Of a stretch of 64,000 bases of DNA, positions 3,747 through 39,202 are shown in pieces. The DNA is from a virus (Duplodnaviria; Caudoviricetes). The DNA lies in IMG/VR virus record IMGVR_UViG_2695420965_000002, positions 444 through 64,443 of that record; one strand, 5' to 3'. Under the pieces are notes generated by a model. The model was not told the origin of the DNA, did no database searches, and saw only the letters and a program-made list of their open reading frames with translations. The position numbers were made by a program, and so were the translations under genes. Positions within the stretch are counted from its first letter, which is position 1. Each line of letters opens with the position of its first letter.

Positions 3747-4152
3747 AAGCCCTCCGTTTCCTTGATGGCTGCGACAGGGTTTTCTCAACGCTCCACCCAA
3801 GAATATGGAGCCTATTCCAGATGGTCTTGAAGCTGACCCCGGAGTGGGCTGCCCACTCGGTGTAAGTCTTCGACTGCCCATTGAATTCGATGCGATGCGA
3901 CTGTTGGTCACGAGGTTTTGGGGTAGGAGGTACGCGGCGTTCCAGCTTCTCGATCAGCTCGACGGTTCCTGAGATGACGTCCGGATGCTGCATCAGCCTG
4001 AGCATGTACTGCTCTGCCTTCCAGTCGACGTAGATCGGGCGTGATGTGACTTGCCGCCTCTCGCCTTGCCGGCCGCGAGCATGGTCCCACGGCTCAATCA
4101 CGTACCGAACGTAATACGCCATCTTAGTCTTGGAGTTCGTTGCTGTTGCCAT
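3739..4152 (-). CDS. putative DNA-binding protein (HTH of the type found C-terminal in phage HNH endonucleases)
   Basis: IEFNGQSKTYTEWA...TIWNRL..GWSVEKTL motif; no HNH core visible. Confidence 0.6.
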   Translation of the reverse strand: MATATNSKTKMAYYVRYVIEPWDHARGRQGERRQVTSRPIYVDWKAEQYMLRLMQHPDVISGTVELIEKLERRVPPTPKPRDQQSHRIEFNGQSKTYTEWAAHSGVSFKTIWNRLHILGWSVEKTLSQPSRKRRAYV

Positions 4153-4711: not shown

Positions 4712-5227
4712 TCACCCCGATCCGGTTGCCTCTAGTTTCCCTCTGAGAGCCTTGAGGGCCGCGTCATGGATCTTGCGGCCGTGCCTGGCACCATGCCCGA
4801 GCGCCACACCCGCCTCGCTCGGCGACATGTTCATCTTGTAGACCAACGAGCAAATCTCTCGCTGCTTCTTTGGGAGAACTTTCAAGAGACTCGCGAAGTG
4901 ATCGTCGGACTCGCGATCGAGCGTCTCGTTGCTCGTGTCCACGATCTCAGATAACTCCTCGGGCGTTGCCAGCTCGCAGCGTTCCGGGCCGAGCTTTCTA
5001 AGGTAATCCTTAATCTCTCCGCGAATCTGCAGCCCTGCCCATCGCTTCCAGACTCCGTTCTTATTAGGCTCGAAACTCGCAGCGGCACGCACGACACCTA
5101 AGGTTGCCCGACTCTTGAGTTCGTCCTCATGAAGCGGGTAGATACGTGCGTACCGCCTGGCGATGTGTTCCGCCCGGCTGACTGACTTTTCTGCGAGAGC
5201 TTTCTTTTCTTCAGTCAGACGATCCAT
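4712..5227 (-). CDS. sigma-70 family RNA polymerase sigma factor (regions 2 and 4)
   Basis: DELKSRATLGVVRAAASFEP...WAGLQIRGEIKDYLR (region 2); LPKKQREICSL...SPSEAGVALG (region 4 HTH). Confidence 0.8.
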   Translation of the reverse strand: MDRLTEEKKALAEKSVSRAEHIARRYARIYPLHEDELKSRATLGVVRAAASFEPNKNGVWKRWAGLQIRGEIKDYLRKLGPERCELATPEELSEIVDTSNETLDRESDDHFASLLKVLPKKQREICSLVYKMNMSPSEAGVALGHGARHGRKIHDAALKALRGKLEATGSG

Positions 5228-8362: not shown

Positions 8363-8731
8363 CTACGCGGCGTCGAAAGCGGCCAGTTCGTCATCCGAGG
8401 GAAGCGTGCCGGTGGCCGGTTCGGGCGCAGGTTCCGGGGCCGGGGCTGGGGTGGGCTCGGACTTCGCGGACGACTTCTTGGTGGATGTGTCTTCGGTTTG
8501 GGTCGGAGCGGTGGGCTTCAGGGCCAACGCGCCCTTGAAGAGTTGTTTCCCGCCCTTGTCGGGGTCGCCCTCATAGACGCGGATCGTCAGCGCGTCCTCG
8601 TAGAACTCGATCACGATTGGGGCCGGCTCGACACCTGCCGCGCCAATCTCCAGGATATTGCCGTTCTTGCTCACGTTGATCTCAGCCTGCCCGCTCTTAC
8701 GCGGGGCACCGTCTTTCAGGGTGACTTTCAT
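8363..8731 (-). CDS. hypothetical protein with Pro/Ala-rich tail
   Basis: GGAG RBS then ATG 8731 (MKVTLKDG...). Confidence 0.7.
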   Translation of the reverse strand: MKVTLKDGAPRKSGQAEINVSKNGNILEIGAAGVEPAPIVIEFYEDALTIRVYEGDPDKGGKQLFKGALALKPTAPTQTEDTSTKKSSAKSEPTPAPAPEPAPEPATGTLPSDDELAAFDAA

Positions 8732-9732: not shown

Positions 9733-9756
9733 GTTCACCTCGTCATGCCAAAGAAG

Positions 9757-9813
9757 AGCCTCATCAGTGCGGGAACCAACCCGCAGACCGCTCGTCCTTG
9801 AGCGGTTTCGGCC
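9757..9813 (-). ncRNA. type II hammerhead ribozyme HH4
   Basis: GGCC-GAAA-CCGCUC(aaggac)GAGCGG-UC^-UGCGGG(uugguu)CCCGCA-CUGAUGA-GGCU; stem III identical to HH1. Confidence 0.92.
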
Positions 9814-10053: not shown

Positions 10054-10078
10054 GTGATTCCTCGGTGCGTAAATGGTT

Positions 10079-10129
10079 GGCCTCATCAGAACGGGCTTTA
10101 CCCGTTAACGCCCAGCGGGCGTTTCGGCC
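10079..10129 (-). ncRNA. type II hammerhead ribozyme HH5
   Basis: GGCC-GAAAC-GCCC(gcu)GGGC-GUU^-AACGGG(uaaag)CCCGUU-CUGAUGA-GGCC. Confidence 0.9.
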
Positions 10130-11651: not shown

Positions 11652-12227
11652 TTATATCCGTTGTCCTTGGATTAGTTTCGTCTCGGCCTTCGGCGGCATG
11701 CAACGGCGCTTCGGTTCCGAGTCGTCATTCTGCGTCCTTGCTTTGGGCTGCGAGTCAACGGCGACCCGACAAAGGCCCGTCTCGCGTCTGATTTGGGTCA
11801 GGCGCTCGTTATTCTGCATACTTAGGGTAGGGAGCCAGCGTACCTTGCCGACTCCGAGGATGTGGAAGTAGATTTCGATGGTATTGGGGCGCGAGCCAGG
11901 CAAGATTGCGAGTTCGATCCCCATCTCATTGCCGTCCGCCTGCATTGTCGTGAGCGTCTTGAGGAACGACCGACAGCAAGCCGACTCGGCCTTGTTCTTG
12001 CATCCGACGCGAGTCACGAGGTACTCACGCAAGAGCATGGTCGCGGCCTTGTGTGGCGGTAGCCTGCGGATCCAACCCAATCGTTTAGGCGGGTCCAGGT
12101 GTCGCACCGATCCGGACATGTCAGAGAGGCGAAGGTTAGGGCCGTCTTCAGGCACGAAGACTGGCGTTCCGGTGTCGTCATGTCTCAGGTACAAGCGTCC
12201 TCCCTTGTCGTTAGCGTGTCGAAACAT
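11652..12227 (-). CDS. hypothetical protein (start uncertain)
   Basis: ORF track; no recognisable motif. Confidence 0.4.
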   Translation of the reverse strand: MFRHANDKGGRLYLRHDDTGTPVFVPEDGPNLRLSDMSGSVRHLDPPKRLGWIRRLPPHKAATMLLREYLVTRVGCKNKAESACCRSFLKTLTTMQADGNEMGIELAILPGSRPNTIEIYFHILGVGKVRWLPTLSMQNNERLTQIRRETGLCRVAVDSQPKARTQNDDSEPKRRCMPPKAETKLIQGQRI

Positions 12228-12238
12228 TCAGAATGTTT
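12222..12238. promoter_or_regulatory. 17-bp palindrome AAACATTCAGAATGTTT, copy 1
   Basis: exact duplicate at 14114-14130. Confidence 0.6.
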
Positions 12239-12404
12239 GGCGGGTTCAAGGCGGGGATTAATCCCCCTCGGCAGCGTTCCCACTACCAAGCCTAACGAAC
12301 CCACTATCCGCCCCAGTGGGCAGATAGACGCCTATCGATGGCTACGATGCGGACGTGACAGACGTGGAACATCCCGGACCGCGAACGGAGGGGTTCGACC
12401 ACGG

Positions 12405-12460
12405 AGCCTCATCAGCGTGGGCCTAACCCACGGACGGAGCACCCCTGCCCCGTTTCGGCT
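12405..12460 (-). ncRNA. type II hammerhead ribozyme HH7
   Basis: AGCC-GAAAC-GGGGCA(gggg)UGCUCC-GUC^-CGUGGG(uuagg)CCCACG-CUGAUGA-GGCU; compensatory A-U pair in stem II. Confidence 0.92.
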
Positions 12461-12468
12461 TGGACGGA

Positions 12469-12678
12469 TTACGAGCCGACTAACGGATCGCTCAGTTGGC
12501 ATAATCCGGGACTGTGCATGTTGATTTTCCGAGCGCAGACTCCGCAATATAACGCCTCAGTGCTGCAATTCCAGTAGCGGGCCGGCACGGCTCTACACGC
12601 CTTTCGGTTACAAGGCTCGTTCTTGGCCGGTTGACGGGTTTGCGGTCTTCCACCAGGAGGAATCCCAGCGTCTTCCAT
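12469..12678 (-). CDS. small Cys-rich (zinc-binding) phage protein
   Basis: CNRKAC...YCGVCARKIN; GGAGG RBS; stop 8 nt before HH7. Confidence 0.65.
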   Translation of the reverse strand: MEDAGIPPGGRPQTRQPAKNEPCNRKACRAVPARYWNCSTEALYCGVCARKINMHSPGLCQLSDPLVGS

Positions 12679-12718: not shown

Positions 12719-12764
12719 GGTCGGGGCGGGAATCGAACCCGCCCGGCAAGGCATCCCTTCGACC
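12719..12764 (-). ncRNA. minimal tRNA-like element B (acceptor-like stem + T-arm)
   Basis: GGUCG-aagggaugccuugccg-GGCGGG-UUCGAUU-CCCGCC-c-CGACC; no D or anticodon arm. Confidence 0.6.
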
Positions 12765-12783
12765 GTGAGCTATAGCTCACAAT

Positions 12784-13722
12784 TCAAGCGGCAACCGCGA
12801 CTTTGGCGGGTTCAGAAGCACGACCAGCGGCACGGGCCTTGTCAATGGCCGAGACCATCTTGTCCAGCTTGTCACGCAAGGCGACCATTTCGGTGTACTT
12901 GCCCGAAGAGAACATGGCGAGCGCCAGCAACTCGCAATCCTTGAGGGTGCAAGAGGCCGGATCGAACCCGACAGCGTTCGCGGGCAACGGCTTACCGTGG
13001 GCCTTGGCGACGTTCTCCAAGATCGACAGAGCGGCTTCCGGGGTAACGGCACCCTTAGCGAGACCGTCACTCAGAGAAGTCGTGATATCCTCCGTCGCCT
13101 TGGCGGCATCGCGAGCCTGCTTCTTGACGGCGGTAGCTGCCGCTTCAAGAGCCGCTTTCGCCGGATTCAGAGCCGCCTTGGCATCCGCGATCCTCTTCAC
13201 TGTCGCCTGAATACGATTCGTGAAGTCCTCGCGAGTAACCCTGGTGCCTTGCGATCGTTCCGCCGCGACACCCCGGATCATGTCCAACCAACCTTCGTTG
13301 ATCGAGCCTTCCAAGTCCTTCGACGTGAAGTGCAGAGCCTTCCCGACGATGGCCAGGTACTCGAACATCGAGAGCGAGTCAGCGGCGTCGGCAATCTCAG
13401 CCCGGACGAGTTCGCGGAGCACGTGGCACCGCGTCCAATCCGAAACCCTGATCGACTCAGCCTTGATCGAGACGTAGATGCGAACCTCATCGCGAATCCG
13501 GCTCATCAGCTTGTCGAAATCACCGCTTCCGTAGTCGTTGATGGAACCCTTCTGCCATTGGGCGTGCTCGAAAGCACGCTTGCCGATGGCGAAATTCCGG
13601 GCACCCTCTTCGGTGTACTTGGCGGTAATCATCTCGACGATTTCCGCAACCGCCGTCTCATGAACGGAGGCCCGATTGTCGCTGACGATGCCGTTCGTGC
13701 TGGTGTTGGTGTCGGCGGACAT
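12784..13722 (-). CDS. hypothetical protein, first gene of the leftward early operon
   Basis: strong host-like codon bias from ATG 13722 (MSADTNTS...); the upstream extension in the ORF track covers structured RNA. Confidence 0.75.
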   Translation of the reverse strand: MSADTNTSTNGIVSDNRASVHETAVAEIVEMITAKYTEEGARNFAIGKRAFEHAQWQKGSINDYGSGDFDKLMSRIRDEVRIYVSIKAESIRVSDWTRCHVLRELVRAEIADAADSLSMFEYLAIVGKALHFTSKDLEGSINEGWLDMIRGVAAERSQGTRVTREDFTNRIQATVKRIADAKAALNPAKAALEAAATAVKKQARDAAKATEDITTSLSDGLAKGAVTPEAALSILENVAKAHGKPLPANAVGFDPASCTLKDCELLALAMFSSGKYTEMVALRDKLDKMVSAIDKARAAGRASEPAKVAVAA

Positions 13723-13788
13723 GGTGCAGCCCTTTCGGGTTGGCCCTTTCCCGTCCCGACCGAAATGGCCGAGTACGTTCGAGGGAGG

Positions 13789-13890
13789 ATCTGGACACAG
13801 GGAATCGAACCCCGCGACCATTGACCCGGCACCGTACCGCTGAACAGACGTCGAGTTTAGGCTGGCGTTCCGTTGACGCGACCCGCAGAT
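13789..13890 (-). ncRNA. atypical tRNA-like RNA C
   Basis: AUCUG/CAGAU closing stem, D-arm-like GCGU-caacGGa-ACGC, T-arm GCGGGG-UUCGAUU-CCCUGU; oversized non-canonical anticodon region. Confidence 0.45.
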
Positions 13891-13999
13891 TTGGCTATGG
13901 TAGCCACAGGGCAGTCTCCTAGTAACGTAGGGGCACTGTCTAGGGCCGGGGGATGTTTCCAGCATCCTTCCGGCCCGTTTGCGTTCACATAACGCAAGT

Positions 14000-14043
14000 C
14001 GAGGGAGTGGGAATCGAACCCACTCGGCAGACACCATTCCTCG
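14000..14043 (-). ncRNA. minimal tRNA-like element A
   Basis: CGAGG-aauggugucugccg-AGUGGG-UUCGAUU-CCCACU-c-CCUCG; same architecture as element B with covarying stems. Confidence 0.6.
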
Positions 14044-14113: not shown

Positions 14114-14130
14114 AAACATTCAGAATGTTT
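14114..14130. promoter_or_regulatory. 17-bp palindrome AAACATTCAGAATGTTT, copy 2
   Basis: upstream of the early operon leader. Confidence 0.6.
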
Positions 14131-14780: not shown

Positions 14781-14964
14781 CTGTCAGTCAGATGTTCGTC
14801 TATGACAGCCCTAACCCGTTGCCCGCCAACACCTTATGGCATGTGTCCGCCGGCCCCCCACGCGATCGTCTTTATAGATAACCTTCCCACCCCGGAATTT
14901 TTCAACCCTGGGGTAATTTACCATTTCTAACACCCTCTCATGAATTGCCTGGATGTGAAGAGTC

Positions 14965-14983
14965 ATTTGTCAGTCTGACAAAT
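14965..14983. promoter_or_regulatory. 19-bp palindromic site, copy 2 (ATTTGTCAGTCTGACAAAT, perfect)
   Basis: perfect 9-1-9 inverted repeat. Confidence 0.75.
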
Positions 14984-15002
14984 TGGGTGCTCGCTGGACG
15001 CC

Positions 15003-15021
15003 ATTCTTCAGACTGACAAAT
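15003..15021. promoter_or_regulatory. 19-bp palindromic site, copy 3 (ATTCTTCAGACTGACAAAT)
   Basis: exact reverse complement of copy 1; 38 bp from copy 2. Confidence 0.75.
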
Positions 15022-15088
15022 CGGGCTGATCGCACCCGTAACGGATGACCGGATTGATACGTCCGGACGTGATAAGGATTAGATCGGC

Positions 15089-34935: not shown

Positions 34936-36129
34936 TCAGAAAGGGATGTCTTCCTCATCGATGGTCTCGACCGGGGCCGAGGCGCTGGCCGGAGCGGCGA
35001 GATGCTGATCGACAAGCTTGATCATGTTCGTGAGCCACGTCACGTCGGTCAGCTTGGACAAGCTCTCGGGGATCTCGCCCGTGTGGCCATCCGCGTTCGC
35101 GGCCGTGGACGCAATCGCCTCAAAGACCTTTTTGAGCCCCACGTTGTCGGCGGGCTGCCCGGTCTGTTTGAGGTAGAGCTGCTGCATCTTGGTCAGCAGG
35201 CCCTTCCGCATGTCGGCGAGATTGACGCCGGATGCCGCTGGGGCAACAGCGGGTTTCGCTGGCTCCGTATTGGCGAGAAGCTGATCGAACTGGCCCTTGT
35301 AGGTCGGGAGCGTAGTGATGAATCGGATCGCGCCCATCGCGATCTCTGTCACCTGCTGCTCGCTCCAGGTGGCCATCTGCGAACCCCATCCGCGTTCTTC
35401 GCCCTCGCGGATCATGCCGCTGGTGACGCTGGTCTCGAAGGTTTTTTCCATCTCCTTCGACCACGCAAAAACCGACTTGCCGGGACGCGGGATCCTGAAG
35501 TTGTCGAACTGCCGTTGCGGAGGCGTCTGCGTCTGCGGAGGTGCGGCTGCCGAAGTGCGGCCATGCTCAGACATCGTTTCGTGTGCCCGGCCGTGAGCGT
35601 CAGAATCGGCGTTGCGGGCTTTGTCTGCGGCTAGAGCGGCGGCTGCGGCGCTAGGAGCGACGAGCGGCTGGAGAGATTTGGCTTTGGGATCGAGGAAGCT
35701 TGGGATTCCCTTGCCGTATAAGTAGCGGCCGATGCCCCAGGCGTCTTGGGCGGCGCGACGCAAGGCGTTGGTGTAGCCGGACTTTTCGTCGTTGTCGACG
35801 TCGTACTCGAACTCGCCGGTCTGCTTGTTCGTGGAACCCATCTCCTCAAAACCGGCGCCATCTTCCTTGTGCATGAAGACCGAGGTTCCCGGTGTCGCCA
35901 TTGGCACCGAGATGTAGAGACGGCACTTGTAGCCGCGAGCCGTCGCTTCGTACTCGGGATACCAACCGTGAGGGCCGACCACGGAGTCGAGTCGATTCGT
36001 GATCGCACGCTTGTCGACGTAGGTAAGCTTCTTGCCGCCACGACTGGTGAAGCTGAGCTGGCTTTCGTCAAATGGAGCGAGCAGTTCCCGCCAGAAAGCA
36101 AGCTGATGTGGTGCTAGTTCGACTGGCAT
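34936..36129 (-). CDS. Rad52/Rad22-family ssDNA annealing protein
   Basis: LLAPF...LTYVDKRAITNRLDSVVGPHGW...KSGYTNALRRAA..WGIGRYLY; SSB-like EEDIPF tail. Confidence 0.85.
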   Translation of the reverse strand: MPVELAPHQLAFWRELLAPFDESQLSFTSRGGKKLTYVDKRAITNRLDSVVGPHGWYPEYEATARGYKCRLYISVPMATPGTSVFMHKEDGAGFEEMGSTNKQTGEFEYDVDNDEKSGYTNALRRAAQDAWGIGRYLYGKGIPSFLDPKAKSLQPLVAPSAAAAALAADKARNADSDAHGRAHETMSEHGRTSAAAPPQTQTPPQRQFDNFRIPRPGKSVFAWSKEMEKTFETSVTSGMIREGEERGWGSQMATWSEQQVTEIAMGAIRFITTLPTYKGQFDQLLANTEPAKPAVAPAASGVNLADMRKGLLTKMQQLYLKQTGQPADNVGLKKVFEAIASTAANADGHTGEIPESLSKLTDVTWLTNMIKLVDQHLAAPASASAPVETIDEEDIPF

Positions 36130-36292
36130 TCGTGTTCGCCTTAAGGTTGAAATAAGTTGGGCATGTTCACTCTCAGAGTTACCCAACCTTTCTCTCGTCG
36201 CACATCTATGGGTAATCGAGTTGAAGCGGAAAAAGCGGCCCATGAGTTTTGGGAAATTCGTGAAACGTTGCGCCAACGCAACGCGACGGGCC

Positions 36293-36311
36293 ATTTGTCA
36301 GTCTGACAAAT
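36293..36311. promoter_or_regulatory. 19-bp palindromic site, copy 6 (perfect)
   Basis: in the divergent region between the replication and packaging operons, next to an AT-rich promoter-like tract. Confidence 0.75.
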
Positions 36312-36978: not shown

Positions 36979-37368
36979 ATGGCCAAGAAACCTACGTCCA
37001 AACAGAGAGCTGAGATGCCGAAGGGTCTTGCGAGGGCGCTCGGGGAGCGTAAAGCCTCGGCGGACTCGGAAGCTCTGTTGACGGATCTCATTGAGGTTTG
37101 GGGTGGAACCCGACAGCTTGCCCTGGACTTGCACAACGAGTTCCAGAAGGCGCAGGTCGGCGGCATGACTCGCCAGCGTATCCTCGAAATGATCCAGCGG
37201 CTCGTGTTAACCAACACGACGCACGAGATCGGCAAGAACATTAAGCCTTCCGACATGGACGATGCCGAACTCGATTCGCTGGCTATGACATACGTCGACC
37301 GACTCTCGGCCGGCAGCAATGGCCAACTATCGGGAGGCAGCAATGGCACCGCTCCCCCCGCCGCCTGA
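36979..37368 (+). CDS. probable terminase small subunit
   Basis: position directly upstream of TerL, strong RBS AGGAGGTG, C-terminal SDMDDAELD. Confidence 0.55.
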   Translation: MAKKPTSKQRAEMPKGLARALGERKASADSEALLTDLIEVWGGTRQLALDLHNEFQKAQVGGMTRQRILEMIQRLVLTNTTHEIGKNIKPSDMDDAELDSLAMTYVDRLSAGSNGQLSGGSNGTAPPAA

Positions 37369-39202
37369 CAGCCCAAAGCGAGGAAGGGGCCGCAGGACAA
37401 CGGTCGGCTCCGTGCCGCCACTTCCATCGCCGTTGACCCCTGAAGACATCCTCCGTCTCACGGACCCAGAAGCCTACGAGCGTACTCTCCCGCCGATCGC
37501 TGAGGCACCCAAGGCTGAGATCGATCCGACTCGGCTTAGCGTCCTGGAGAACGAAGAATTCAAGGGCGTCCTCTATGAGATCGCGGCACGCTCCAGAGAG
37601 GCGCTCAAGCTGTTCAATCCGCTCCCTGAGCAGGAACGGTTCTTCGCGTCGGACTGCGACGAGCGGCTGGCGATCGGCGGCAACCGTGGCGGTAAAACGA
37701 CAACGACGATGGTCGAGATCGCCAGGGCTGTGACCGGGCAAGACCCTTATGATAAGTATCCGAAGCGAGACGGCGTTTTCATATTAGTGGCAATCGATCT
37801 GTCGAAATGCGCTAAAGTCTTTTACCGGAAGCTTTTCCTTCCAGGTGCGTTCAAGGTTATCAAGGATCTTGCAACCGGGAAGTGGCGAACGTTCAACCCC
37901 GAGACCGACTCGGATCGGATCGAGGATGCGCGGAAGGCTCCCCCTCTGATTCCTCCCAGGTTCGTGGAGGCAACCAGTTGGGAGAACAAAAAAGACCTTA
38001 TTCCTAAGACGGTCAGGCTCAAGAATGGCTGGGAGCTTTGGTTTTACTCGTCCGGTTCTGAGTGGCCGCAGGGTGTCGATGTCGACGGCGTTGCGTTCGA
38101 CGAGGAGTTGGAGCGGGATGGCTGGTACGCCGAAATGTCCGCCCGTCTCGCAGACCGCCGCGAAAAGAACTCGACCACTGGCAAGGTGAAATCGGGCAAA
38201 TTCATTTGGTCAGCTACCCCGCAATCAGGCACCGCTCAACTCTTTGAGCTTTACTCTCGCGCGATTGAGGAGCGGGAGGGGCGTGAAGCGTCACTGGAGC
38301 GGGGCGAGACACCGGAACCTCTCACAATCGACGTGTTTCTGTTCGGGATTGACACTAACCCGTTTATCGCCGAGCACGCGAAGGATGCCCTAAAGAAGAA
38401 GTACGCAAACAACGAGGCTGAATACAAGGTGCGTATCGAGGGTGATTTCGCCTTGTACGGAACCCGCGTCTATGGCGACTTCACTCCAAAGGGCGTCCAC
38501 GGAATCGACTCGTTCCCGGTCCCCGAAGATTGGACGAGCTATGCGATCGTCGACCCTGGACGCCAGGTCTGTGCCGTGCTGTTCTTCGCAATCCCGCCGC
38601 GAAACTCCCAATTCGCCGGGCAAAAAATCGTTTATGACATGCTGTATATCCAGAAGTGCAATGCAAAAATTTTCGCCAAGGAGTTCGTGAAACGCGTCAA
38701 CGGCAGGCCAATCGAAATCGGGATCATCGACCATCGCGGCGGACGGATCACAGACATCGGCTCGGGCGAATCCGCCGAGAATCAGTACACTAAAGCTTTA
38801 AAGGAAGAGGGCTTCAAGTTCGAGCGCGGTGGCACATCGTTCCAGTGGGCCTCAGATGATGTTAAAGGCGGGATTCAGGCCGTCCAGAACGCGCTCCACA
38901 TTATCGATGGCAAGTCTGAACTGCTGGTCTTCCGCGACAAGTGCCACAAGCTTCTCTGGGAGATGGAGCGGTACTCCTACAAGAAGCTCCCGAGCGGCGT
39001 CGTCACTGACGAGCCGATCAAGCTGAACGACCACGCCTGCGACTGCCTGAGATACGCCTTCATGGCGAACCTCAAGTACGTCAAACCCCGGCAACGTAAA
39101 GCGACCAAGGGGTACACGACACTCTACTTGGAGCAAAAAAAGCTCAGGGCGAAACACCGGGACCAAAAGCTCTACGGCGGCGGCTCCTACAAAGTTGGGT
39201 AG
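37343..39202 (+). CDS. terminase large subunit
   Basis: Walker A GGNRGGKT, Walker B AFDEE, SATP, nuclease motifs VDPG and DHACDCLRY. Confidence 0.9.
   Translation: MAPLPPPPDSPKRGRGRRTTVGSVPPLPSPLTPEDILRLTDPEAYERTLPPIAEAPKAEIDPTRLSVLENEEFKGVLYEIAARSREALKLFNPLPEQERFFASDCDERLAIGGNRGGKTTTTMVEIARAVTGQDPYDKYPKRDGVFILVAIDLSKCAKVFYRKLFLPGAFKVIKDLATGKWRTFNPETDSDRIEDARKAPPLIPPRFVEATSWENKKDLIPKTVRLKNGWELWFYSSGSEWPQGVDVDGVAFDEELERDGWYAEMSARLADRREKNSTTGKVKSGKFIWSATPQSGTAQLFELYSRAIEEREGREASLERGETPEPLTIDVFLFGIDTNPFIAEHAKDALKKKYANNEAEYKVRIEGDFALYGTRVYGDFTPKGVHGIDSFPVPEDWTSYAIVDPGRQVCAVLFFAIPPRNSQFAGQKIVYDMLYIQKCNAKIFAKEFVKRVNGRPIEIGIIDHRGGRITDIGSGESAENQYTKALKEEGFKFERGGTSFQWASDDVKGGIQAVQNALHIIDGKSELLVFRDKCHKLLWEMERYSYKKLPSGVVTDEPIKLNDHACDCLRYAFMANLKYVKPRQRKATKGYTTLYLEQKKLRAKHRDQKLYGGGSYKVG

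What the first reader, a model, noticed from the sequence alone, without database searches (positions are those of the whole stretch)
12719..14043. Two covarying 45-nt mini-tRNA elements (acceptor-like stem plus T-arm only) bracket the first early gene
Seen on the minus strand: A (14000-14043) CGAGG-aauggugucUGCCG-AGUGGG-UUCGAUU-CCCACU-c-CCUCG and B (12719-12764) GGUCG-aagggaugccuUGCCG-GGCGGG-UUCGAUU-CCCGCC-c-CGACC. They share architecture, T-loop and the UGCCG linker, with compensatory stems. Neither has a D arm, an anticodon arm or an encoded CCA. A possible third, degenerate copy (UGCCG-AGGGG-GAUUAAU-CCCC-GCCU) lies near 12249-12293. Established: RNase P and RNase Z recognise the tRNA top half. 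Inference: these are host-nuclease processing signals complementing the hammerheads, tRNA decoys against anticodon-nuclease defences, or an undescribed RNA motif.
Basis: partly seen in the sequence, partly recalled or inferred. Interest (0 to 1): 0.78.

Follow-up and report, generated by a model that had tools for sequence, protein, structure and literature searches.

The report
Phage mini-tRNA elements between genes
Three short RNA elements in a prophage operon copy only the top half of a transfer RNA, and similar elements sit in front of genes in many other phages, probably so that the host's tRNA-trimming enzymes cut long phage transcripts into gene-sized messages.

Summary
The two elements exist exactly as described. 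A is 14000-14043 and B is 12719-12764, both on the minus strand. Each has a 5-bp closing stem, a short linker, and a 7-bp stem capped by a canonical T-loop (UUCGAUU), giving a 12-bp stack.

ARAGORN and Rfam 15 call nothing here.

A and C share AAUGG right after the closing stem. A scan of viral contigs with that motif plus the T-loop core found the same architecture: acceptor-like stem, D-loop-like AAYGGUU, T arm, no anticodon arm.
- 31 of 64 distinct non-tRNA matches close with a stem of at least 5 bp; permuted controls gave 4.7 on average.
- The stems covary strongly.
- The elements occur in co-oriented arrays, usually just upstream of an ORF.
- A model built only from 11 viral copies finds exactly A, C and B in the 64-kb window.

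My best reading (about 55%) is that these are signals for host RNase P and RNase Z that punctuate phage transcripts, used here alongside three type II hammerheads. No RNA data exist to test this. The closest analogues are plant mitochondrial t-elements.

The parts
14000..14043 (-). Mini-tRNA A: CGAGG / AAUGGUGUCUGCC / GAGUGGG-UUCGAUU-CCCACUC / CCUCG, then A-C-U-U
   Evidence: Sequence, fold. The viral-built model R2 scores it 28.3 bits, E 2e-4, full length. Its 3' half is 3 mismatches in 24 from the family-wide tRNA-Ser(UGA) 3' end.
13787..13827 (-). A divergent member with a weak closing stem.
   Evidence: Exact core. R2 scores it 25.3 bits, E 1.2e-3. Weak mascRNA-like match, E 2. Closing stem not robust in a 101-nt fold. 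It has three G-U pairs, so the structure exists only on the minus-strand RNA.
12719..12764 (-). Mini-tRNA B: GGUCG / AAGGGAUGCCUUGCC / GGGCGGG-UUCGAUU-CCCGCCC / CGACC
   Evidence: R2 scores it 21.7 bits, E 9e-3. Its 3' half is 3 mismatches in 24 from tRNA-Ser(GGA). It lies 40 nt upstream of an ATG preceded by GGAGG.
13979..13997 (-). Hairpin UUGCGUU-AUGUG-AACGCAA, starting 2 nt after A
   Evidence: Read. In a 141-nt fold part of it pairs elsewhere. Hairpins occupy the same position after the mini-tRNAs of L115, L122 and L139.
13943..13976 (-). Conserved two-part hairpin GGGCCGG..CCGGCCC followed by AGACA. A separate leader element.
   Evidence: fold. Counterparts with changed inner stems occur twice in L009 and twice in L075.
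12784..13722 (-). 312-aa gene of unknown function lying between C and B
   Evidence: GC3 0.74 against GC2 0.47. Homologues at 59-62% identity. No Pfam, PHROG or PDB match. The upstream open frame 13723-14037 is not coding: GC by codon position is 0.59, 0.60, 0.62.
12765..12780 (-). Perfect palindromic hairpin GUGAGCUAUAGCUCAC, 3 nt after the stop codon and abutting the 5' end of B
12469..12678 (-). Candidate 69-aa Cys-rich ORF downstream of B
   Evidence: Composition is flat across codon positions, so coding is uncertain.
12399..12460 (-). Type II hammerhead, below Rfam's cut-off but with a complete core
   Evidence: 27.0 bits, E 0.037. Counterparts directly after the homologous gene in L009 and L075.
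10075..10129 (-). Type II hammerhead at another cistron boundary
   Evidence: 26.7 bits, E 0.045.
9758..9812 (-). Type II hammerhead at another cistron boundary
   Evidence: 29.8 bits, E 0.0066.
14114..14130 (.). Palindrome AAACATTCAGAATGTTT (operator-like), about 70 nt upstream of A. A second copy lies at 12222-12238.
   Evidence: Repeat family D3. AAACATCATGATGTTT occupies the same position in L075.
12249..12293 (-). Not a mini-tRNA: a GGGG-AUUAAU-CCCC hairpin in front of the second operator.
   Evidence: R2 does not match it.

Best explanation
A, B and C are structured RNA elements in the minus-strand transcript of a prophage operon. Each keeps only the top half of a tRNA: an acceptor-like closing stem, a short connector that starts AA-N-GG (a D-loop remnant whose GG would dock on the T-loop), and a T arm with a canonical T-loop. 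In A and B the stems stack to 12 bp, the length that RNase P measures.

They are divergent members of a family of phage mini-tRNAs that is widespread and, as far as I could find, uncatalogued. Family members lie in intergenic arrays just upstream of genes.

Inferred mechanism: host RNase P cuts at the 5' edge, and RNase Z (or an equivalent enzyme) cuts after the discriminator. This chops a polycistronic transcript into gene-sized mRNAs, whose ends are in some lineages capped by an adjacent hairpin.

In this prophage the mini-tRNAs do the same job at three cistron boundaries that type II hammerheads do at three others.

Shown: the structures, the covariation, the family and the positions. Inferred: the cleavage and the enzymes.
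For: Structure
- A and B each form 5 + 7 = 12 bp with a UUCGAUU loop closed by G-C.
- 5 of the 12 pairs differ on both sides between A and B and none is broken.
- The G-U pairs in C place the fold on the transcribed minus strand.

Family
- In the first 80 loci there were 82 matches, 16 inside ARAGORN tRNAs and 66 outside.
- Of 64 distinct non-tRNA elements, 31 have a closing stem of at least 5 bp directly before AATGG. In 200 partner permutations the mean was 4.7 and the maximum 10. Among elements with a short linker the count is 30 of 46.
- Covariation in 11 chosen viral copies: 96.2% of cells paired against 62.3% in shuffles, score 0.938 against 0.218, 0 of 500 shuffles as high, slid controls at most 63%.
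- Covariation in 50 distinct model-aligned copies: 92.4% against 57.2%, score 0.759 against 0.160, 0 of 500.
- Model R2, built from those 11 viral copies only, gives exactly three matches at E up to 10 in the 64-kb window: A, C and B. T-arm-only local matches score 15.9-17.1 bits.
- R2 finds 53 matches in 80 viral loci and 16 in the other 31.

Position
- Co-oriented arrays: 6 listed copies in L115 and 6 in L122 (one cut off by the locus end), 3 in L139.
- In L115 six successive genes are each preceded by mini-tRNA, ACGAUU, a small hairpin, a Shine-Dalgarno sequence and AUG.
- An ORF of at least 40 aa starts within 100 nt downstream on the same strand for 43 of 50 elements, against 23 of 50 when the opposite strand is read.

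Host
- Type A RNase P RNA is present at 280.7 bits.
- 64 of 75 host tRNA genes have no CCA string at their 3' end, so the missing CCA is normal here.

Context
- Three type II hammerheads sit at other boundaries of the operon.
- A Pistol ribozyme and tRNA arrays lie near mini-tRNAs in other phages.

Precedent, from passages read
- RNase P cleaves acceptor + T-stem + T-loop hairpins at the canonical site and measures 12 bp (PMC11143913).
- Plant mitochondrial t-elements, found by GGTTCRANYCC, mark mRNA ends made by RNase P and RNase Z (PMC1920247).
- Hammerheads flank single genes in prophages (PMC3088659).
Against: - There are no RNA data. The only sequencing run found is a low-coverage DNA run, so no cleavage site or 45-nt RNA has been seen.
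- The viral family was fished with a motif taken from A and C. Part of the R2 score is therefore circular, and the scores for A, C and B (22-28 bits) are well below those of typical viral members (40-63 bits).
- The 11 training sequences were picked because they fitted one pairing register. The 50-sequence alignment is fitted to the model.
- A and B carry longer connectors (13 and 15 nt) than the family norm. B reads AAGGG, not AAYGG. C closes poorly.
- The two closest prophage relatives (59-62% protein identity) have no mini-tRNA at these positions, so conservation in orthologous loci cannot be shown.
- The hairpin abutting the 5' edge of B leaves no single-stranded leader, which may hinder RNase P.
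- The downstream hairpin is not general in the family: mean MFE -4.27 against -3.83 kcal/mol, p = 0.28.
- The best RNase Z match in the host is below the curated cut-off, 134.6 against 292.95 bits.
Confidence: 0.55

Rival explanations
1. The elements are cis-acting leader modules that are not excised. They would stay on the mRNA as a stable 5' structure, perhaps after a single RNase P cut. There they would protect it from 5'-end-dependent decay, enhance translation, or bind a phage or host protein that recognises the tRNA elbow.
For: Their position is typically 10-60 nt upstream of the start codon, co-oriented with the gene in 43 of 50 cases. In L115 the mini-tRNA, hairpin and Shine-Dalgarno sequence form one repeated unit.
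Against: Nothing here distinguishes this from full excision. The preservation of an 11-12-bp stack fits the measuring rule of RNase P better than a generic stabiliser hairpin would. By my reading, most 3' tails lack CCA, which fits cutting by RNase Z (that CCA blocks RNase Z is recalled, not tested).
Confidence: 0.15
2. The elements are decoys or sponges. As excised mini-tRNAs that mimic the top half of tRNA-Ser, they would soak up a host factor that acts on the acceptor end or elbow. An example would be AbiEii/DUF1814-type nucleotidyltransferase toxins.
For: The 3' halves of A and B are each 3 mismatches in 24 from the tRNA-Ser(UGA) and tRNA-Ser(GGA) 3' ends conserved across the host family. 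Both keep a small hairpin where the variable arm would be. The host genome has three AbiEii-family matches. A DUF1814 toxin studied in another bacterium depends on acceptor stem, T stem and variable loop but little on the anticodon stem (passages of PMC11162799).
Against: The hairpin at the variable-arm position is only 3-4 bp. The discriminators are A and U, not the G of the host tRNA-Ser genes. Typical viral family members have no such hairpin and sit in arrays in front of genes, which argues for a cis role. No link to any defence gene was found in the window.
Confidence: 0.1
3. The elements are inert relics: decayed fragments of phage tRNA genes or old tRNA-type attachment sites.
For: A and B resemble tRNA-Ser 3' halves. 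A related prophage region carries a tRNA-Leu 3' fragment about 1.5 kb from the homologous genes. tRNA fragments from integrations exist elsewhere in this genome, for example a duplicated tRNA-Val 3' end.
Against: None is identical to a tRNA 3' end of the host or its family; A and B are 3 mismatches away and C matches none of 120 other genomes. All lie inside the element, on the transcribed strand. Each has its own complementary 5' strand at the same place, next to a shared AA-N-GG. The changes in the acceptor strand are compensated on the 5' side. The same architecture recurs with covariation in unrelated viral contigs. A crossover in the T-loop would give chimeric, non-complementary stems, which is not what is seen.
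Confidence: 0.07
4. The elements are DNA-level boundary repeats that promote recombination between gene modules, or a small mobile MITE- or REP-like repeat.
For: Compared with two relatives, A, C and B look like insertions into otherwise alignable leaders. In L115 the modules are near-identical repeats. The reading frame upstream of C looks like a displaced N-terminus of the gene.
Against: There are no target-site duplications. No further copies exist in the 10.7-Mb genome. Stems covary within one genome in the window and in L139, which points to RNA pairing rather than sequence identity. The REP-like hits in genome G095 have a GTAG head and a palindromic loop and are a different thing.
Confidence: 0.05

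Closest known systems
Plant mitochondrial t-elements (Forner et al. 2007, PMC1920247; passages read)
   Same: Both are tRNA-like structures found by the conserved T-arm motif GGTTCRANYCC. Both lie next to protein genes in long transcripts. The ends of t-elements coincide with mRNA ends made by RNase P and RNase Z, and excised t-elements receive non-encoded C and A.
   Different: t-elements are about 70-nt non-canonical cloverleaves in organelles. The elements here are 41-50 nt with no anticodon arm and no D stem, they are in phages, and their processing has not been shown.
RNase P model substrates (acceptor stem + T stem + T-loop hairpins such as AT1) and phage RNase P substrates (P1/P7 C4 RNA, phi80 M3 RNA), as reviewed in PMC11143913 (passages read)
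   Same: A coaxial 12-bp acceptor/T stack capped by a T-loop is enough for correct cleavage. Phage RNAs are already known to be RNase P substrates.
   Different: The model substrates are synthetic. C4 and M3 are single regulatory or stable RNAs, not arrays in front of genes. No antisense targets were found for A, B or C.
mascRNA / MEN-beta tRNA-like RNAs (Rfam RF01684)
   Same: A tRNA-like element inside a long transcript whose excision by RNase P and RNase Z makes the ends of the flanking RNA (recalled).
   Different: These are eukaryotic and cloverleaf-like. C matches the model at only 20.4 bits against a gathering score of 42.5, E 2. A and B do not match.
tRNA-like domain of tmRNA
   Same: Acceptor stem + T arm + D-loop without a D stem, and no anticodon arm (recalled).
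   Different: In tmRNA the two halves are separated by a pseudoknotted mRNA-like domain. ARAGORN finds no tmRNA here, and there is no tag reading frame.
Hammerhead ribozymes flanking genes in prophages (Perreault et al. 2011, PMC3088659; passages read) and theta ribozymes next to phage tRNAs (PMC10879173; listing and abstract only)
   Same: Both are intergenic RNA devices proposed to cut long phage transcripts into gene-length mRNAs. Three hammerheads share this operon.
   Different: Those are self-cleaving. The mini-tRNAs would borrow host enzymes.
Mitochondrial tRNA punctuation
   Same: tRNA-shaped elements between cistrons direct RNase P and RNase Z cuts (recalled).
   Different: There the punctuating elements are functional tRNAs. 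Here they cannot decode.

Membership tests
Canonical tRNA gene | Cloverleaf with D arm and anticodon arm, detected by tRNA finders | tested here: not met
   ARAGORN finds 0 genes in the window. Rfam tRNA gives no match even at E up to 10; the only related hit is tRNA-Sec at E 6 for B with its flank. The elements are 41-46 nt.
Phage mini-tRNA family (defined here from viral contigs) | Closing stem of 5-7 bp immediately 5' of AAYGG, with its 3' strand directly after the T stem | tested here: met
   A: CGAGG/CCUCG. B: GGUCG/CGACC (B reads AAGGG). C: GGGUC/GAUCC with a 4-nt bulge, which is weak. In the family, 31 of 64 elements meet this against 4.7 by permutation.
Phage mini-tRNA family (defined here from viral contigs) | T arm with a UUCGAUU loop closed by G-C, and a total stack of about 11-12 bp | tested here: met
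   A and B each have 5 + 7 = 12 bp. In the family the commonest totals are 12 (11 of 34) and 11 (9 of 34).
Phage mini-tRNA family (defined here from viral contigs) | Significant full-length match to a covariance model built without the window's copies | tested here: met
   R2 scores A 28.3, C 25.3 and B 21.7 bits, and these are the only three matches at E up to 10 in 64 kb. The scores are low for the family, and the fishing motif came from A and C.
Phage mini-tRNA family (defined here from viral contigs) | Short connector (AAYGGUU plus 3-6 nt) | tested here: inconclusive
   A has 13 nt and B 15 nt, each with an extra 3-4-bp hairpin. C has 6 nt.
Phage mini-tRNA family (defined here from viral contigs) | Intergenic, co-oriented with the genes, just upstream of an ORF | tested here: met
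   B lies 40 nt and C 64 nt before an ATG. A lies in the operon leader. In the family, 43 of 50 elements against 23 of 50 on the opposite strand.
Plant mitochondrial t-elements | GGTTCRANYCC motif within a tRNA-like fold next to a gene | tested here: met
   GGTTCGATTCC occurs exactly three times. The motif definition is from PMC1920247.
Plant mitochondrial t-elements | Element ends coincide with mapped mRNA ends, and the free element receives CCA-like additions | not testable with these tools
   No RNA run is listed for this sequence.
tRNA-type attachment site or tRNA gene fragment | Identity to the 3' part of a host tRNA gene | tested here: not met
   There is no identical host tRNA end. The best matches in 121 family genomes are 2-3 mismatches in 24 for A and B and none for C.
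tRNA-type attachment site or tRNA gene fragment | Located at the boundary of the integrated element, next to an integrase | tested here: not met
   All three lie inside an operon. The only recombinase found is a resolvase-type gene at 332-1282, 11 kb away.
tmRNA | tRNA-like domain plus a tag reading frame | tested here: not met
   ARAGORN finds no tmRNA in the window. The host tmRNA is elsewhere.
mascRNA-menRNA (RF01684) | Score at or above the Rfam gathering cut-off | tested here: not met
   C scores 20.4 against 42.5 bits, E 2.
REP / REPIN-type repeats | Many dispersed copies in the genome, a GTAG head and a palindromic core | tested here: not met
   The own genome holds only A and B. The G095 hits that resemble B carry GTAG and a palindromic TTTSAAA loop.

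The most novel reading that the evidence does not exclude
Phages of many hosts carry an uncatalogued class of 41-50-nt 'elbow-only' mini-tRNAs: an acceptor stem, a D-loop GG and a T arm. These serve as portable cut-here signals. Placed in front of genes, singly or in arrays, they make host RNase P and RNase Z dice polycistronic phage transcripts into individual mRNAs. That would be a phage version of mitochondrial tRNA punctuation, interchangeable with self-cleaving ribozymes as in this prophage. The excised mini-RNAs may have a second life as decoys for enzymes that act on tRNA ends.
Probability: 0.45. Interest if true: 0.85.

Novelty: new variant of a known kind. Interest (0 to 1): 0.8.

Why it matters
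If correct, host tRNA-processing enzymes are a general tool that phages use to shape their mRNAs. This would explain short conserved intergenic repeats in many uncultivated phage genomes.

It would add a compact natural part of about 45 nt for building multi-gene constructs in bacteria, parallel to the tRNA-guide arrays already used in eukaryotes.

It would also give annotators a new RNA family. Current tRNA finders and Rfam 15 miss these elements.

The idea is directly testable by end-mapping RNA-seq and in vitro cleavage.

Tried and rejected
Searches for further copies
- Model R1 (built from A and B) on the own genome found only A and B. The next hit was the 3' part of tRNA-Ser(tga) at 21.6 bits.
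- R1 on 121 family genomes: 30 had hits at E up to 0.1. Of the 20 loci I inspected, 6 lay in ARAGORN tRNAs and the rest were coding sequence or unrelated hairpins. The 11 hits in G095 are REP-like repeats. L055 follows a chromosomal glycosidase-like gene and is a chance hit.
- R2 on the 121 family genomes found nothing, not even in the own genome, because the E-values are at genome scale. This is uninformative.
- A structure-only descriptor on the own genome gave 15 hits against 6 in the reversed-sequence control. Only A and B have the G/C-closed T-loop.
- Pattern GGGAATCGAACCCNNNCGGCAN{3,8}CCNTTC: 0 hits in viral contigs. In metagenome contigs it gave 1 hit, an odd class II tRNA-like gene.
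- Pattern TGCCGNNNGGGTTCGATTCCC in viral contigs: 19 loci, of which 8 were Leu, Ser or Gly tRNAs and the rest other tRNA-like sequences.

Searches for relatives and function
- Protein-based search for relatives: nothing with the single protein. With the alignment, 2 genome loci and 0 viral. The protein family has 28 members, all unnamed, and no PDB relative.
- Antisense targets for the linkers, as in the P4 CI and P1 C4 systems: only chance 9-11-mers.
- Named phages related to L115, L139 or L122: no match.

Expression data
- No RNA holder is listed. The single DNA run covers two short pieces at 100% identity and none of the elements.

Closed or limited tools
- Literature: ten searches found no description of mini-tRNA arrays in phages. 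Supplementary files were not opened. Motif lists or hammerhead alignments in supplements (for example Dataset S1 of PMC3088659) could hold these elements.
Full report
**Setting.** The window is part of a 10.7-Mb genome of 63% G+C. The window itself is 52-61% G+C. It carries phage genes:
- large terminase at 37319-39202 (+) and an Erf-like protein at 34936-36294 (-);
- primase-polymerase, ParB-like protein, helicase and a P22 antirepressor domain;
- a resolvase-type recombinase, a methyltransferase and a sigma-70-like factor on the minus strand.

Named relatives returned by the tools belong to Isosphaeraceae. The finding lies at the head of a minus-strand operon that runs from about 14130 towards the start of the window.

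**The observation.**
- Each folds alone into a 5-bp closing stem, a 3-4-bp hairpin, and a 7-bp stem with the loop UUCGAUU closed by G-C. That makes 12 stacked pairs.
- In the pairwise alignment 5 of the 12 stem pairs differ on both sides and none is broken. The loop, the UGCCG and a GAA-N-GG stretch are conserved.
- Chance does not explain this. The 21-nt pattern gives 3 matches against 0.12 expected, and 0 of 100 shuffles reach 3.
- The three exact copies of GGTTCGATTCC within 1.3 kb are the only cluster among 40 non-tRNA occurrences of the slightly broader motif GGTTCGAWTCC in the whole genome.
- ARAGORN and Rfam at gathering score report nothing in the window.

**Two corrections.**
- There is a third element, C (13787-13827). 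It has the same 13-nt core and the same AAUGG directly after its closing stem, and it has three G-U pairs, so the fold exists only in the minus-strand RNA. Its closing stem is interrupted and does not survive in a longer fold.
A related prophage has the same hairpin-then-palindrome arrangement. It is a different element.

**The gene and its relatives.**
- The ORF between C and B is 13722-12784, 312 aa. The longer open frame from 14037 is not coding: G+C by codon position is 0.59, 0.60, 0.62, against 0.59, 0.47, 0.74 in the gene.
- It has no Pfam, PHROG or PDB relative. Its family has 28 unnamed members.
- Two related prophage regions (59-62% protein identity) carry the gene as tandem paralogues. 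These are L009 and L076, the latter titled Singulisphaera acidiphila by the tool, and L075, titled an Isosphaeraceae MAG.
- Each has a conserved GGGCCGG..CCGGCCC leader hairpin and a type II hammerhead directly after the gene, but no mini-tRNA. The elements therefore cannot be tested by orthologous conservation.

**Not attachment-site debris.**
- No host tRNA ends like A, B or C.
- Across 121 genomes of the family, the 24-nt 3' half of A is 3 mismatches from the conserved tRNA-Ser(UGA) end (2 in three places). The 3' half of B is 3 mismatches from tRNA-Ser(GGA) (2 in three places from another conserved end that I did not identify). C matches nothing.
- The first nine bases of A (CGAGGAAUG) resemble those of tRNA-Ser(UGA) (GGAGGGGUG). 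The changes in the 3' strand are compensated in the 5' strand.
- In both A and B, positions 6-7 have become AA, and positions 66-67 now pair with the bases just 5' of the T stem. This keeps 12 pairs.
- A and B are therefore reshaped derivatives of class II tRNAs that maintain their own pairing. They are not fragments kept for recombination with a host gene.

**A family in other phages.**
- A and C share AAUGG after the closing stem, so I scanned viral contigs for AATGGN{5,18}GGGTTCGATTCCC.
- In the first 80 loci there were 82 matches, 16 inside ARAGORN tRNAs and 66 outside.
- Most of the short-linker matches outside tRNAs show the same architecture: a 5-7-bp stem ending right before AAUGG(UU), 3-6 further bases, a 5-7-bp T stem, UUCGAUU, and the 3' strands of both stems in direct succession.
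- Without any selection, 31 of 64 distinct elements have a closing stem of at least 5 bp. When 5' strands are dealt to other elements the mean is 4.7 and the maximum 10. The count is 30 of 46 with short linkers and 1 of 18 with long linkers.
- In the long-linker matches AAUGGUA sits inside an ordinary D arm, for example GCUCAAUGGUAGAGC in L126, L155 and L170. The connector is therefore a D-loop without its stem. In a tRNA its GG docks on the T-loop (established knowledge).
- Covariation:

| Alignment | Cells paired | In shuffles | Covariation score | Shuffled score | Shuffles as high | Caveat |
|---|---|---|---|---|---|---|
| 11 viral copies | 96.2% | 62.3% | 0.938 | 0.218 | 0 of 500 | Copies chosen for one pairing register |
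| 50 distinct copies | 92.4% | 57.2% | 0.759 | 0.160 | 0 of 500 | Alignment fitted to the model |

- Rfam has no family for them.

**Membership of A, B and C.**
- Model R2 was built from the 11 viral copies only. Across the whole window, both strands, at E up to 10, it gives exactly three matches: A (28.3 bits, E 2e-4), C (25.3 bits, E 1.2e-3) and B (21.7 bits, E 9e-3).
- Matches to a T arm alone score 15.9-17.1 bits.
- The test is partly circular, because the fishing motif came from A and C. The window's copies are atypical, with longer connectors and lower scores.

**Where the family sits.**
- R2 finds 53 matches in the 80 loci and 16 in the other 31.
- Copies form co-oriented arrays: 6 listed in L115, 6 in L122 (one cut off by the locus end) and 3 in L139.
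- In L115 six successive small genes are each preceded by stop codon, mini-tRNA, ACGAUU, a 4-5-bp hairpin, an A-rich spacer, GGGAGA and AUG. L139 shows mini-tRNA, ACAA, hairpin, gene.
- An ORF of at least 40 aa starts within 100 nt downstream on the same strand for 43 of 50 distinct elements, against 23 of 50 read on the opposite strand.
- The downstream hairpin is lineage-specific, not general (p = 0.28).
- In the window, A is followed after 2 nt by UUGCGUU-AUGUG-AACGCAA. B is abutted on its 5' side by GUGAGCUAUAGCUCAC and lies 40 nt before an ATG with GGAGG. C lies 64 nt before the 312-aa gene.
- Real tRNA arrays, a ROOL RNA and a Pistol ribozyme occur near mini-tRNAs in other contigs.

**Mechanism (inferred).**
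[quoted passage not shown] It measures the 12 bp from the T-loop and reads the elbow by stacking (passages of PMC11143913).
- The host has a type A RNase P RNA.
- Its tRNA genes lack encoded CCA: 64 of 75 have no CCA string at the end, and in the other 11 the string lies, by my reading, in the acceptor end. A CCA-less 3' end is therefore the normal substrate here.
- The best RNase Z match is below the curated cut-off.
- Three type II hammerheads with complete cores sit at other boundaries of the same operon, below Rfam's cut-off at E 0.007-0.045. Hammerheads flanking single genes are known from prophages (PMC3088659).
- The simplest reading is that mini-tRNAs and hammerheads are alternative ways to cut the same long transcript. 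Plant mitochondrial t-elements, found by the same T-arm motif and shown to mark mRNA ends, are the closest precedent (PMC1920247).

**What remains open.** No RNA data exist for this organism in the runs offered. Cleavage, the enzymes and the fate of the excised RNA are untested. The rivals are a non-excised leader module, a decoy for enzymes acting on tRNA ends, inert relics and recombination boundaries; the rival-explanations section weighs each. Ten literature searches found no description of such elements in phages. Supplementary files were not opened.

Noticed in passing
window 13943-13976 (-); L009 about 9735-9775 and 8375-8415 (-); L075 about 3830-3866 and 4935-4975 (+): A conserved two-part leader hairpin, GGGCCGG-(inner stem)-CCGGCCC, followed by AGACA and a Shine-Dalgarno sequence, precedes genes in this prophage and two relatives. 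The inner stem changes on both sides between copies (GGAUG/CAUCC, GAGUG/CACUC, GGUG/CACC). It may be an antitermination or RNase III-type signal.
   Followed up: partly
window 14114-14130 and 12222-12238: Two copies of the 17-bp palindrome AAACATTCAGAATGTTT. L075 has AAACATCATGATGTTT at the same place. It is probably a repressor operator. A further inverted repeat, CATTTGTCAGTCTGACAAAT, lies at 14964-15025.
   Followed up: partly
window 9758-9812, 10075-10129, 12399-12460 (-): Three type II hammerheads with complete cores score below Rfam's gathering cut-off (27-30 against 37 bits). The one at 12399-12460 has counterparts with covarying stems after the homologous gene in L009 and L075. One relative's core reads CAGAUGAG instead of CUGAUGAG.
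   Followed up: partly
window 13857-13907 (-): A 16-codon reading frame (GTG..TAA) sits behind the conserved GGAG, where the relatives start the 312-aa gene. Its peptide (VATIAKSAGRVN..) resembles their N-termini. The stretch holding C may therefore have been inserted into the original start of the gene.
   Followed up: no
G095 (L066-L074): REP/REPIN-like repeats GTAG-GGGCGGGTTTSAAACCCGCCC occur in inverted pairs about 80 bp apart, with at least 18 copies in nine fetched stretches.
   Followed up: partly
own genome C5:243747-243819 and C5:288472: The 3' end of tRNA-Val(cac) is repeated 45 kb downstream of the gene, which is the signature of an integrated element. Five tandem tRNA-Met(cat) genes lie at C4:500810-503052.
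   Followed up: no
L012, L013, L019, L023, L026, L028 (viral contigs): A conserved tRNA-like sequence of about 75 nt (GAGCG..UGCCGAUUGGGUUCGAUUCCCAACCGCUC) occurs in six viral contigs and is not called by ARAGORN. It is another non-canonical tRNA-like element.
   Followed up: no
L171 11373-11445 (+); L099 3619-4189 (+); L130 2107-7856 (+): A Pistol ribozyme lies about 700 nt downstream of a mini-tRNA. A ROOL RNA with four tRNAs, and an array of seven tRNAs, lie in the same regions as mini-tRNAs.
   Followed up: no
L077 1469-1559 (-): A soil metagenome contig carries a 91-nt class II tRNA-like gene with anticodon UAU and an imperfect T stem, next to a transposase-like ORF. Its variable arm and T arm resemble B.
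   Followed up: no
L009 about 5160-5202 (-): The 3' end of a tRNA-Leu(gag) (GCTCGTGCAGGTTCAAGTCCTGTCTCCGGCA), without the rest of the gene, lies 1.5 kb downstream of the paralogous genes in the related prophage. It is probably that element's attachment site.
   Followed up: no
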